A stretch of DNA of 46,345 nucleotides, from sequence record LC918680.1, one strand, 5' to 3'. Source of the DNA: a phage. Below are positions 35,974 through 37,057 of this stretch, piece by piece (position 1 is the first letter of the stretch; each line of letters opens with the position of its first letter). Below the pieces are notes generated by a model, which saw nothing but the letters and a program-made list of their open reading frames with translations, ran no database searches and was not told where the DNA came from. A program made the position numbers and the translations under genes.

Positions 35974-36189
35974 ATGAGGGAAGTAATTAACGCCGCCACG
36001 GCATCAACCGGCGGAGCCGCTATAACTGGTGCCGCAACTGGTCAAATGACTATAGCAATAATCAGCCTTGTGGCTCTTGTTGGTTTCGGGCTGTGGGGAG
36101 CATATTGGAAGTTTAAGGACAGTCAGGCAATCAGGAAGGCTCTAGAGTCGGGTGATTTAAAGACAGCTATCAATATTAGGAGTAAGTAA
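35974..36189 (+). CDS. holin (pinholin-like)
   Basis: 71 aa; Gly/Ala-rich weakly hydrophobic segment then strong TMD MTIAIISLVALVGFGLWGAYW; SD AAAGGTGA upstream; precedes endolysin. Confidence 0.6.
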   Translation: MREVINAATASTGGAAITGAATGQMTIAIISLVALVGFGLWGAYWKFKDSQAIRKALESGDLKTAINIRSK

Positions 36190-36674
36190 TGAAGCAGAAG
36201 CTGGTAATTAGTGCAGCTACGGCAGCAGCAATATACATCGCAGCGCCGATTATTGAGCTAGTAGAAGGTGTGGAATACAAGCCTTACATGGACATTGCAG
36301 GCATTCCTACGGTTTGTTCAGGTATCACTGGTCCTGATGTGGTGTGGGGTAAAAAGTACAGTGCAAGGGAGTGCAGGAACTTACTGGAGAAACACATCCA
36401 GATTCATGGAAAGTATGTGCAGGATGCAGTAACTTACCCAATCTCTCCACAGACAAGGGCGGCGTTAATCAGCTTTAGCTACAACGTTGGTGGCGCTGCA
36501 ATGAGGAAGTCAACGGCAGTAAGGCTGATTAATCAGGGCAAGATTGAAGAGGGTTGTAATGCTCTCGCCTCCTGGAATAAAGCTCGAGTAAATGGCAAGC
36601 TAAAAGTTGTTAAAGGTCTAGTTAACAGGCGCAACGAGGAGATTAAATTATGCTTAAGTGGGGTGGGTAAATGA
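36189..36674 (+). CDS. SAR endolysin (GH24 lysozyme with signal-anchor-release N-terminus)
   Basis: Catalytic triad spacing E-x8-D-x5-T in ELVEGVEYKPYMDIAGIPT; N-terminal hydrophobic SAR-like segment. Confidence 0.8.
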   Translation: MKQKLVISAATAAAIYIAAPIIELVEGVEYKPYMDIAGIPTVCSGITGPDVVWGKKYSARECRNLLEKHIQIHGKYVQDAVTYPISPQTRAALISFSYNVGGAAMRKSTAVRLINQGKIEEGCNALASWNKARVNGKLKVVKGLVNRRNEEIKLCLSGVGK

Positions 36675-37057
36675 AGGCTGCGTTAATTGCTGCGGTAATT
36701 ATACTTTCTGGTTGCTCGGCAACATCTGCGCTGACCGGGTTGATTGGTAGTAAGCCAGAGATTAGCGCTCAAGCAGGTGCGGAGAATAACAAGGTTGGAG
36801 TAGGGCTAACTAATAAGGTTGATTCAAGTTCCAGCGCAAAGGCTGAAGTGAAGAACTCTAAGGTTGACACTCTTGATAGTTCAAGCGGTAAAAAGACTTC
36901 TGATAACTCAATCAAGGCATCAACAATCACGGCTGAGAAGATTGAAATCACCAACAATGATTCGTCTGCAATCCCGTGGATTGGGAGTGGAATCATGTTT
37001 TGCGTCATCATCATTCTGCTCTTAATGATATTCAGGAAAAACAAAAAAGCCCCGTAA
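36671..37057 (+). CDS. unimolecular spanin (lipoprotein signal + C-terminal TMD)
   Basis: Lipobox ILSGC at N-terminus and C-terminal TMD IMFCVIIILLLMIF; last gene of lysis cassette. Confidence 0.7.
   Translation: MKAALIAAVIILSGCSATSALTGLIGSKPEISAQAGAENNKVGVGLTNKVDSSSSAKAEVKNSKVDTLDSSSGKKTSDNSIKASTITAEKIEITNNDSSAIPWIGSGIMFCVIIILLLMIFRKNKKAP

What the first reader, a model, noticed from the sequence alone, without database searches (positions are those of the whole stretch)
35974..37057. Lysis cassette: pinholin-like holin, SAR endolysin and unimolecular spanin
The endolysin has the GH24 E-x8-D-x5-T triad inside an N-terminal hydrophobic signal-anchor-release-like segment, which fits the small two-segment holin. 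The third gene has a lipobox at the N-terminus and a TMD at the C-terminus within one polypeptide, the unimolecular spanin architecture rather than an i-/o-spanin pair.
Basis: partly seen in the sequence, partly recalled or inferred. Interest (0 to 1): 0.4.

Follow-up and report, generated by a model that had tools for sequence, protein, structure and literature searches.

The report
T1-type phage lysis cassette
This is the ordinary three-gene host-lysis cassette of a T1-like coliphage (small holin, membrane-tethered lysozyme, single-protein spanin); it is correctly read but already well described in phage T1 and its relatives.

Summary
Their ends overlap, and terminator-like hairpins flank the block. 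The window is a Drexlerviridae (Braunvirinae) coliphage, 97.8% identical here to Escherichia phages ES and AN_ECEAS.

The proteins are 54%, 49% and 38% identical to T1 gp13, gp12 and gp11. T1 gp11 is the experimental prototype u-spanin.

- **Endolysin:** best solved relatives are RrrD and the SAR endolysin R21. It has a marginally hydrophobic N-terminal segment (aa 5-22).
- **Spanin:** T1's own lipobox (LSGC, Cys15, Ser at +2), a Cys-free 87-residue periplasmic stretch and a strong C-terminal TMD. All 120 listed homologues keep the lipid-attachment Cys and the C-terminal TMD.
- **Other spanins:** the only other convincing lipoprotein in the window is Cor, so there is no i-/o-spanin pair.
- **Holin:** one strong TMD plus an Ala/Gly/Ser/Thr-rich N-segment as weakly hydrophobic as S21 TMD1, but no sequence similarity to S21. 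"Pinholin" therefore remains an analogy.

Verdict: observation confirmed, interpretation supported, already known, low interest.

The parts
35873..35899 (+). Terminator-like hairpin (8-bp stem, 7 G-C pairs) plus T-run. It separates the upstream gene from the lysis cassette.
   Evidence: The same arrangement occurs in T1 and is annotated in phage CEB_EC3a.
35963..35969 (+). Shine-Dalgarno-like AAGGTGA, 4 nt before the holin ATG.
   Evidence: Read from the sequence. The start and its upstream purine-rich box are conserved in relatives.
35974..36189 (+). Holin, 71 aa, T1 gp13 family. It has a weakly hydrophobic Ala/Gly/Ser/Thr-rich N-segment (aa 4-23, nt 35983-36042) and a strong TMD (aa 25-45, nt 36046-36108). 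The C-tail is basic and amphipathic (net +4).
   Evidence: phrog_2877 E=4e-36. 54% identity to T1 gp13. Hydropathy, family alignment, tail charge.
36189..36674 (+). GH24 (T4-lysozyme-type) muramidase with an N-terminal SAR-like segment, 161 aa. The SAR-like segment is aa 5-22 (nt 36201-36254). Catalytic codons: E26 at 36264-36266, D35 at 36291-36293, T41 at 36309-36311.
   Evidence: PF00959 E=4e-35. PDB RrrD 4zpu E=1e-27 and R21 3hde E=5e-27. 49% identity to T1 gp12. Alignment, hydropathy.
36671..37057 (+). Unimolecular spanin, 128 aa, T1 gp11 family. Lipoprotein signal peptide aa 1-14 and lipobox LSGC (nt 36704-36715, Cys15 codon 36713-36715). Periplasmic domain aa 16-102. C-terminal TMD about aa 103-121 (nt 36977-37033). 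Basic tail RKNKKAP.
   Evidence: phrog_1804 E=2e-46. 38% identity to T1 gp11. Features. All 120 listed homologues keep the Cys and the C-terminal TMD.
37043..37069 (.). A-run, G+C hairpin and T-run: a terminator shared with the convergent gene 37069-37404 (-). The spanin stop codon lies in its loop.
   Evidence: The scan reports it on the minus strand only. Its use on the + strand is my reading of the sequence (T-run after the stem). T1 and CEB_EC3a have a terminator at the same place.
35673..35846 (+). Neighbouring 57-aa SH3-like protein (DUF7244), the counterpart by position of T1 gp14. A 2026 paper proposes it as an accessory of Drexlerviridae lysis modules. It is not shown to belong to the cassette.
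   Evidence: PF23896 E=6e-28. phrog_4788 E=3e-29. PMC13164509.

Best explanation
This is the late lysis operon of a T1-like (Drexlerviridae, Braunvirinae) coliphage, and it most likely works by the pinholin / SAR-endolysin / u-spanin route.

1. **Export of the endolysin.** The Sec system exports it without cleavage, and its weakly hydrophobic N-terminal segment holds it in the inner membrane, inactive.
2. **Triggering.** The 71-aa holin accumulates in the inner membrane with its C-terminus in the cytoplasm. At a set time it forms lesions that collapse the membrane potential.
3. **Activation.** Depolarisation lets the endolysin's N-terminal segment leave the bilayer and refold against the catalytic domain, as in R21. 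Glu26 sits four residues after that segment and is thereby brought into place. The SAR segment has no Cys, so regulation is not of the P1 Lyz disulfide-caging type. The enzyme then cuts the peptidoglycan.
4. **Outer membrane.** The third protein is lipid-anchored in the outer membrane through Cys15 (Ser at +2, so sorted by Lol). Its C-terminal TMD holds it in the inner membrane. Once the peptidoglycan mesh is gone it is free to act and disrupts the outer membrane, in the current model by fusing it with the inner membrane.

**Shown here:** gene order, homology, catalytic motif, hydropathy, lipobox, both anchors and their conservation.

**Inferred from characterised homologues:** export, tethering and release, hole size, membrane fusion.
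For: **Identity of the phage.** The region is 97.8% identical to Escherichia phages ES and AN_ECEAS. It is 83-87% identical to Christensenvirus phages that annotate holin, lysozyme and u-spanin here.

**Homology to T1.**
- The order matches T1 genes 13-12-11, with 54%, 49% and 38% identity.
- T1 gp11 complements a lambda RzRz1 defect and is the prototype u-spanin. All but two members of the gp11 family sit in pinholin/SAR-endolysin cassettes (PMC6139136).

**Endolysin.**
- PF00959 E=4e-35. The best solved relatives are RrrD and R21.
- E26/D35/T41 are invariant in the alignment with R21 and T1 gp12.
- The N-terminal segment has a 19-residue Kyte-Doolittle mean of 1.85, against 2.11 for the R21 SAR domain and 2.6-2.7 for true anchors.

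**Spanin.**
- LSGC is the same lipobox as in T1. The +2 residue is Ser, the 87-residue periplasmic part has no Cys, and the tail is basic.
- 120 of 120 listed homologues keep the Cys and the C-terminal TMD.

**Holin.** The TMD (aa 25-43) has a Kyte-Doolittle mean of 2.09. The N-segment scores 0.92 with a Hessa sum of +6.45, close to S21 TMD1 at 0.64 and +6.44.

**No alternative spanin.** The only other convincing lipoprotein in the window is Cor.

**Expression phenotypes in T1 (PMC10954549).**
- The endolysin alone lyses E. coli, whereas the signal-less T7 endolysin does not.
- The holin alone inhibits growth without marked lysis.
- The spanin alone is strongly bactericidal.
Against: - Nothing in this window has been tested experimentally.
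- The holin shows no similarity to the S21 pinholin.
- Its two uncharged stretches are joined by a single polar residue, Q24 (TGQ). A true two-TMD hairpin is therefore uncertain, and the T1 GenBank record calls the homologue single-TMD.
- SAR endolysins can also be paired with other triggers. Paper titles and abstracts for Mu and N4 listed point that way.
- Identity to T1 gp11 (38%) is just below the 40% clustering threshold of the spanin survey. Membership rests on the PHROG profile and intermediate relatives.
- The AlphaFold model of the spanin was low-confidence and did not show the beta-rich periplasmic domain predicted in the literature.
Confidence: 0.9

Rival explanations
1. The cassette is as described, but the holin is not a pinholin. 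It could be a single-pass (N-out, C-in) or otherwise canonical holin that makes larger or different lesions. The SAR endolysin would simply respond to the depolarisation it causes.
For: - There is no similarity to S21.
- The junction between the two uncharged stretches is only the single polar residue Q24.
- The N-segment's summed insertion energy is unfavourable at +6.45.
- The T1 record annotates a single TMD.
- I found no measurement of hole size for this family in the papers searched.
Against: - The N-segment is about as weakly hydrophobic as S21 TMD1, which does insert and then exits.
- It is exactly 20 uncharged residues in most of the few family representatives, the length of a membrane span.
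- Curated genome papers class the family as class II pinholins (PMC4559738, PMC11447400).
- T1 holin alone gave no marked lysis.
Confidence: 0.3
2. The N-terminal hydrophobic segment of the endolysin is a cleavable Sec signal peptide. The enzyme would then be secreted as a soluble periplasmic protein rather than tethered and released.
For: - The N-terminus has the basic-then-hydrophobic layout of a signal peptide (MKQK followed by 18 uncharged residues).
- Lysis by T1 endolysin expressed alone would also fit plain secretion.
Against: - The only small-x-small site after the hydrophobic core is I17-A18-A19 followed by Pro20. By the established signal-peptidase I rule, Pro at +1 blocks cleavage (my reading of the sequence).
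- Cleavage near there would remove residues that align with the SAR domain of R21. In my recollection, that domain refolds into the active enzyme.
- The closest characterised relative by sequence, R21, is the paradigm uncleaved SAR endolysin.
Confidence: 0.05
3. The third gene encodes an ordinary phage lipoprotein, for example a superinfection-exclusion factor like Cor or Llp, and not a spanin.
For: It has a lipoprotein signal, and T1-like phages do encode exclusion lipoproteins.
Against: - It is homologous to T1 gp11 (phrog_1804 E=2e-46), which complements lambda RzRz1 (PMC6139136).
- It has a C-terminal TMD that exclusion lipoproteins do not need. The TMD is conserved in 120 of 120 listed homologues.
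- It is the last gene of the lysis cassette and overlaps the endolysin gene by 4 nt.
- Cor is encoded separately at 19781-20002.
Confidence: 0.03

Closest known systems
Phage T1 lysis cassette: genes 13 (holin), 12 (endolysin), 11 (u-spanin), NC_005833 42878-43982
   Same: - Same gene order and near-identical sizes: 71/71, 161/162 and 128/133 aa.
- Identities of 54%, 49% and 38%.
- Same LSGC lipobox, same triad, and overlapping gene ends.
- An SH3-like gene and a terminator lie upstream and a terminator lies downstream.
   Different: - It belongs to a different subfamily (Braunvirinae rather than Tunavirinae).
- The spanin signal peptide is shorter (14 vs 21 residues before the Cys).
- Two extra genes lie between the exonuclease gene and the SH3-like gene.
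Escherichia phages AN_ECEAS / ES and Christensenvirus phages TR1, TR2, IME542
   Same: - 97.8% DNA identity to AN_ECEAS and ES, with a u-spanin 100% identical to that of AN_ECEAS.
- 83-87% DNA identity to TR1, TR2 and IME542, which annotate holin, lysozyme and u-spanin here.
   Different: - Only annotation differs. The spanin is labelled 'hypothetical protein' in AN_ECEAS.
- Several records call the holin with a longer, non-conserved N-terminus.
Phage 21 S21 pinholin / R21 SAR endolysin (and RrrD of prophage DLP12)
   Same: - The endolysin is a clear homologue of R21 and RrrD (E about 1e-27; 43% identity to R21). It has the same triad and a comparably marginal N-terminal segment.
- The holin has the same size class, a basic C-tail and a weak N-terminal segment as S21.
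   Different: - The holin is unrelated in sequence to S21. It has no dual-start motif and almost no loop between its two segments.
- The endolysin lacks R21's six-residue linker between the SAR segment and the catalytic Glu.
- Phage 21 uses an embedded Rz/Rz1 pair, not a u-spanin.
Lambda Rz/Rz1 two-component spanin
   Same: [quoted passage not shown] T1 gp11 complements the lambda RzRz1 defect (PMC6139136).
   Different: - One polypeptide carries both anchors.
- The periplasmic domain has no Cys.
- There is no embedded or overlapping second reading frame with a lipobox.

Membership tests
GH24 / Phage_lysozyme (PF00959) muramidase | Profile match above the curated cut-off | tested here: met
   121.2 bits against a cut-off of 22.3, E=4e-35, covering profile positions 3-125 of 125.
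GH24 / Phage_lysozyme (PF00959) muramidase | Catalytic triad E-x8-D/C-x5-T | tested here: met
   E26, D35 and T41. All three are invariant in the alignment with R21 and T1 gp12.
SAR endolysin (R21 type) | N-terminal uncharged segment of TMD length that is only marginally hydrophobic and rich in Ala/Gly/Ser/Thr, preceded by basic residues | tested here: met
   MKQK is followed by 18 uncharged residues (aa 5-22). About half of them are Ala/Ser/Thr. Kyte-Doolittle mean 1.85, against 2.11 for R21 and 2.6-2.7 for the Rz21 and spanin anchors. The Hessa scale values used were recalled from memory.
SAR endolysin (R21 type) | No signal-peptidase cleavage; the N-terminal segment is retained in the mature enzyme | tested here: inconclusive
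   Judged only by rule. The one plausible small-x-small site (I17-A18-A19) is followed by Pro20. No SignalP-type predictor or experiment was available.
SAR endolysin (R21 type) | No Cys in the SAR segment (separates the R21 type from P1 Lyz disulfide caging) | tested here: met
   The Cys residues are at 43, 62, 123 and 155 only.
SAR endolysin (R21 type) | Sec-dependent export, inactive tethered form, release on depolarisation | not testable with these tools
   Indirect support only. T1 endolysin expressed alone lyses E. coli, unlike T7 endolysin (PMC10954549).
Pinholin (S21 paradigm) | Sequence homology to S21 | tested here: not met
   BLASTP E=0.77. The best PHROG is phrog_2877, with only a weak hit to phrog_20.
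Pinholin (S21 paradigm) | Two TMDs (N-in, C-in), the first being SAR-like | tested here: inconclusive
   There is a strong TMD at aa 25-45. The N-segment (aa 4-23) has the same weak hydropathy as S21 TMD1 and the length of a TMD. Only Q24 separates the two stretches.
Pinholin (S21 paradigm) | Encoded next to a SAR endolysin | tested here: met
   The holin stop and the endolysin start overlap (TAATG).
Pinholin (S21 paradigm) | Small (about 2 nm) lesions that depolarise the membrane but do not pass a folded endolysin | not testable with these tools
   This needs expression together with a soluble endolysin, or a direct measurement of hole size.
T1 gp13 holin family (phrog_2877) | Full-length profile match and homology to T1 gp13 | tested here: met
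   E=4e-36 over 71 of 71 profile positions. 54% identity over the full length. The family is small: 9 clusters at 50% identity in 1.84 billion representatives.
Unimolecular spanin, T1 gp11 family | N-terminal lipoprotein signal with lipobox and Cys | tested here: met
   MKAALIAAVII-LSGC with Cys15. LSGC is the same lipobox as in T1. The Cys is kept in all 120 listed homologues.
Unimolecular spanin, T1 gp11 family | Outer-membrane sorting (no Asp at +2) | tested here: met
   The +2 residue is Ser. It is Ser in 112 of the 114 homologues that matched the lipobox pattern. The sorting rule is established Lol knowledge.
Unimolecular spanin, T1 gp11 family | C-terminal TMD followed by a basic cytoplasmic tail | tested here: met
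   aa 103-121, Kyte-Doolittle mean 2.74, tail RKNKKAP. AlphaFold helix 102-124 is the only confident part of the model. 120 of 120 listed homologues have it.
Unimolecular spanin, T1 gp11 family | Periplasmic domain without Cys | tested here: met
   0 Cys in 87 residues, as reported for all 58 u-spanins in PMC6139136.
Unimolecular spanin, T1 gp11 family | Periplasmic domain predicted as a short helix followed by beta strands | tested here: inconclusive
   AlphaFold gave a helix at 18-24 but otherwise low-confidence coil (pLDDT 42-48). Alternating hydrophobic/polar runs are visible. No dedicated secondary-structure predictor was available.
Unimolecular spanin, T1 gp11 family | At least 40% identity over at least 40% of the length to a family member (threshold of the spanin survey) | tested here: met
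   38% to T1 gp11 itself. It reaches 45-54% to other Drexlerviridae u-spanins and 92% to the TR1 u-spanin. phrog_1804 E=2e-46.
Unimolecular spanin, T1 gp11 family | Last gene of the lysis cassette, with no separate i-/o-spanin pair | tested here: met
   Gene order. The window-wide lipobox scan found only this gene, Cor, and two implausible short ORFs.
Unimolecular spanin, T1 gp11 family | Complements a spanin defect and disrupts the outer membrane | not testable with these tools
   Shown for T1 gp11 only (PMC6139136).

The most novel reading that the evidence does not exclude
The T1-family holin (phrog_2877) is unrelated in sequence to S21. It could be an independently evolved pinholin of unusual design: a SAR-like, Ala/Gly/Ser/Thr-rich N-segment joined to the pore-forming TMD by essentially no loop. 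It might also never form a hairpin and act as a single-pass N-out holin. Either way it would define a separate topological solution for triggering SAR endolysins, and I found no experimental test of it. This would apply to the whole T1 family, not to this window in particular.
Probability: 0.25. Interest if true: 0.3.

Novelty: already known. Interest (0 to 1): 0.07.

Why it matters
It matters little beyond correct annotation.

- It confirms that this Braunvirinae phage uses the standard T1-type lysis route.
- It fixes the true 71-aa holin start.
- It gives a name to a spanin that the closest GenBank record (AN_ECEAS) lists as hypothetical.

Two open questions remain, and both concern the whole T1 family rather than this window:

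- What are the topology and hole size of the gp13-type holin?
- How does a beta-rich u-spanin disrupt the outer membrane?

Tried and rejected
- **AlphaFold2 of the spanin** (26-sequence alignment): mean pLDDT 53. Only the C-terminal helix was confident, so the model says nothing about the periplasmic domain.
- **AlphaFold2 of the endolysin** (single sequence): pLDDT 39, unusable. No fold search was run on it.
- **NCBIfam:** nothing above the curated cut-offs.
- **Kongari et al. J Virol 2018** (PMC6206483): not held in the library. T1 gp11 facts come from PMC6139136 and secondary sources.
- **Promoter scan:** no convincing sigma-70 promoter between the upstream terminator and the holin.
- **Longer holin forms (87 or 97 aa):** rejected. 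The extension reads through the terminator hairpin and is broken by stops in T1, CEB_EC3a and the window itself.
- **Dual-start holin/antiholin motif:** rejected. There is no second Met before M25, and that position is Leu in T1.
- **Hidden o-spanin or second lipoprotein:** rejected. Only Cor and two implausible short ORFs were found.

Full report
**1. What is in the sequence**

The finding's coordinates match three consecutive + strand ORFs:

| Gene | Coordinates | Length |
|---|---|---|
| Holin | 35974-36189 | 71 aa |
| Endolysin | 36189-36674 | 161 aa |
| Spanin | 36671-37057 | 128 aa |

- The first stop overlaps the second start (TAATG). The second stop overlaps the third start (ATGA). This is the usual sign of a tightly coupled operon.
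- A terminator-like hairpin with a T-run (35873-35899) lies between the upstream gene and the holin.
- An A-run, hairpin and T-run (37043-37069) lies between the spanin and the convergent gene 37069-37404. The scan reports it on the minus strand. Its use on the + strand is my reading of the sequence.
- Some relatives annotate longer holins of 87 or 97 aa. The extra codons run through the terminator hairpin and are interrupted by stops in T1, CEB_EC3a and this window. The 71-aa start (ATG or GTG, after a GGTGATC-type ribosome-binding site) is conserved.

**2. What phage this is**

- The region 35600-37400 is 97.8% identical to Escherichia phages ES and AN_ECEAS.
- It is 83-87% identical to TR1, TR2, TR3 and IME542 (Drexlerviridae, Braunvirinae, Christensenvirus). 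Several of these records annotate holin, lysozyme and u-spanin here.
- Phage T1 has the same block as genes 13-12-11, with an SH3-like gene 14 upstream and terminators on both sides.
- Identities to T1 gp13, gp12 and gp11 are 54%, 49% and 38%.

**3. Endolysin**

- It matches Pfam Phage_lysozyme (GH24) at E=4e-35.
- The closest solved structures are RrrD (4zpu) and the SAR endolysin R21 (3hde, 3hdf), at E about 1e-27.
- The motif E26-x8-D35-x5-T41 is present. It is invariant in the alignment with R21 and T1 gp12.
- The N-terminus is MKQK followed by 18 uncharged residues (LVISAATAAAIYIAAPII), about half of them Ala/Ser/Thr.
- Its hydropathy is marginal, as the table shows. The Hessa values were recalled from memory.

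| Segment | 19-residue Kyte-Doolittle mean |
|---|---|
| This endolysin, aa 5-23 | 1.85 |
| R21 SAR domain | 2.11 |
| T1 gp12 N-terminal segment | 1.13 |
| Spanin C-terminal TMD | 2.74 |
| Rz21 N-terminal TMD | 2.63 |

It starts four residues after it.
- T1-family enzymes lack the six-residue linker that R21 has at this point.
- The segment has no Cys. Regulation would therefore be of the R21 refolding type rather than P1 Lyz disulfide caging. That distinction is from my knowledge of Kuty et al. 2010, which is cited in PMC4559738.
- The only small-x-small site after the hydrophobic core is followed by Pro20. By the established rule this argues against signal-peptidase cleavage, but I could not run a predictor.
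- Indirect experimental support comes from T1. Its endolysin expressed alone lyses E. coli, while the signal-less T7 endolysin does not (PMC10954549).

**4. Spanin**

- It matches phrog_1804 (Rz-like spanin) at E=2e-46.
- It has a short lipoprotein signal (MKAALIAAVII) and the same LSGC lipobox as T1 gp11, with Cys15 and Ser at +2.
- The periplasmic stretch is 87 residues, rich in Ser/Lys/Ala/Thr, without Cys or aromatic residues.
- A strong C-terminal TMD follows (about aa 103-121, Kyte-Doolittle mean 2.74), and then a basic tail, RKNKKAP.
- All 120 listed database homologues keep the Cys and the C-terminal TMD. The lipobox variants are LSGC, LTGC, LPGC, LYGC and LFGC.
- A window-wide scan for lipoprotein signals found only this gene, Cor (19781-20002, minus strand, phrog_1119) and two implausible short ORFs. 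There is no separate i-/o-spanin pair.
- T1 gp11 complements a lambda RzRz1 defect and is the prototype u-spanin. None of 58 u-spanins surveyed has a periplasmic Cys. All but two members of the gp11 family sit in pinholin/SAR-endolysin cassettes (PMC6139136).
- AlphaFold2 gave only the signal helix, a short helix at 18-24 and the TMD helix, with a mean pLDDT of 53. It neither supports nor contradicts the beta-rich prediction in the literature.

**5. Holin**

- It matches phrog_2877 (holin) over its full length at E=4e-36.
- The family is small: 9 clusters at 50% identity among 1.84 billion representatives.
- It has one strong TMD (aa 25-45) and a basic C-tail (net +4), so the C-terminus should be cytoplasmic.
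- Residues 4-23 are 79% Ala/Gly/Ser/Thr.

| Segment | Kyte-Doolittle mean | Hessa sum (kcal/mol) |
|---|---|---|
| This holin, aa 4-22 | 0.92 | +6.45 |
| S21 TMD1 (the known SAR-type first helix) | 0.64 | +6.44 |

- My recalled S21 sequence was confirmed as 100% identical to phage 21.
- In most of the few family representatives this segment is exactly 20 uncharged residues between a charged N-terminus and a polar junction residue (Q or E). That is the length of a membrane span.
- Against a true hairpin: only Q24 separates the two uncharged stretches, there is no similarity to S21, and the T1 record says "single transmembrane domain".
- Curated genome papers nevertheless class T1-family holins as class II pinholins (PMC4559738, PMC11447400).
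- I found no measurement of hole size in the held library.
- "Pinholin-like" is therefore a reasonable functional analogy, not a demonstrated membership.

**6. Most likely mechanism**

1. The Sec system exports the endolysin, which stays tethered and inactive in the inner membrane.
2. The holin accumulates and triggers, collapsing the membrane potential.
3. The SAR segment leaves the bilayer and the enzyme refolds into its active form.
4. The peptidoglycan is degraded.
5. The u-spanin is anchored in both membranes and until then confined by the peptidoglycan mesh. Once freed, it disrupts the outer membrane, in the current model by fusing it with the inner membrane.

The anatomy and the homology are shown here. 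The dynamics are inferred from R21, S21 and T1 gp11.

**7. Novelty**

None. The cassette is a near copy of sequences already in GenBank. The only useful by-products are annotation corrections: the holin start, and the spanin labelled hypothetical in AN_ECEAS.

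Noticed in passing
window 35673-35846 (+) and 35873-35899: The 57-aa gene just upstream of the holin is DUF7244 / SH3-like (PF23896 E=6e-28). A 2026 paper (PMC13164509) proposes it as an accessory of Drexlerviridae lysis modules. A terminator-like hairpin separates it from the holin here, in T1 (L003 6782-6808) and in CEB_EC3a. It has no signal peptide or TMD. It may therefore end the upstream operon, and if the holin makes only pinholes it could not reach the peptidoglycan before lysis.
   Followed up: partly
window 35945-35950: A perfect TTGACA hexamer lies 21-23 nt upstream of the holin start. It is conserved in TR1, IME542 and CEB_EC3a, although the flanking sequence differs in CEB_EC3a. 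It is too close to the start codon to be the -35 element of a leadered holin mRNA. Its function is unexplained.
   Followed up: partly
window 36650-36673: An in-frame ATG at 36650 (MLKWGW) is cut off from the spanin ATG at 36671 by a TAA at 36668-36670. In some relatives (P0018, P0020, IME542) this codon is sense, so the spanin reads MLKWGWK-MKAA... The length of the spanin signal peptide therefore varies among close relatives.
   Followed up: partly
window 19781-20002 (-): A 73-aa lipoprotein (MKKFIICAALLLTGC...) matches the Cor superinfection-exclusion protein (phrog_1119, E=4e-27). It is the only other convincing lipoprotein in the window.
   Followed up: yes
window 34585-35614 (+): Two genes lie between the DNA-repair exonuclease (33378-34511) and the SH3-like gene. 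One is polynucleotide kinase/phosphatase-like (34585-35058). The other is dNMP-kinase/ATPase-like (ORF 35012-35614; relatives annotate a 555-nt version). IME542 and CEB_EC3a lack both, and so does the exonuclease-SH3-holin order reported for Tunavirus.
   Followed up: partly
(tblastn of the spanin against phage genomes): Homologues of this u-spanin (about 50% identity) occur in many Klebsiella phages with genomes of about 43-44 kb, such as NTUH-K2044-K1-1 and KP-Rio/2015. I recall these as podophages of a different family. If so, the gene has moved between phage families.
   Followed up: no
window 36189-36674, Cys43, Cys62, Cys123, Cys155: Four Cys residues are invariant across this endolysin, T1 gp12 and R21. 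The enzyme works in the oxidising periplasm, so they may form disulfide bonds. This was not examined.
   Followed up: no
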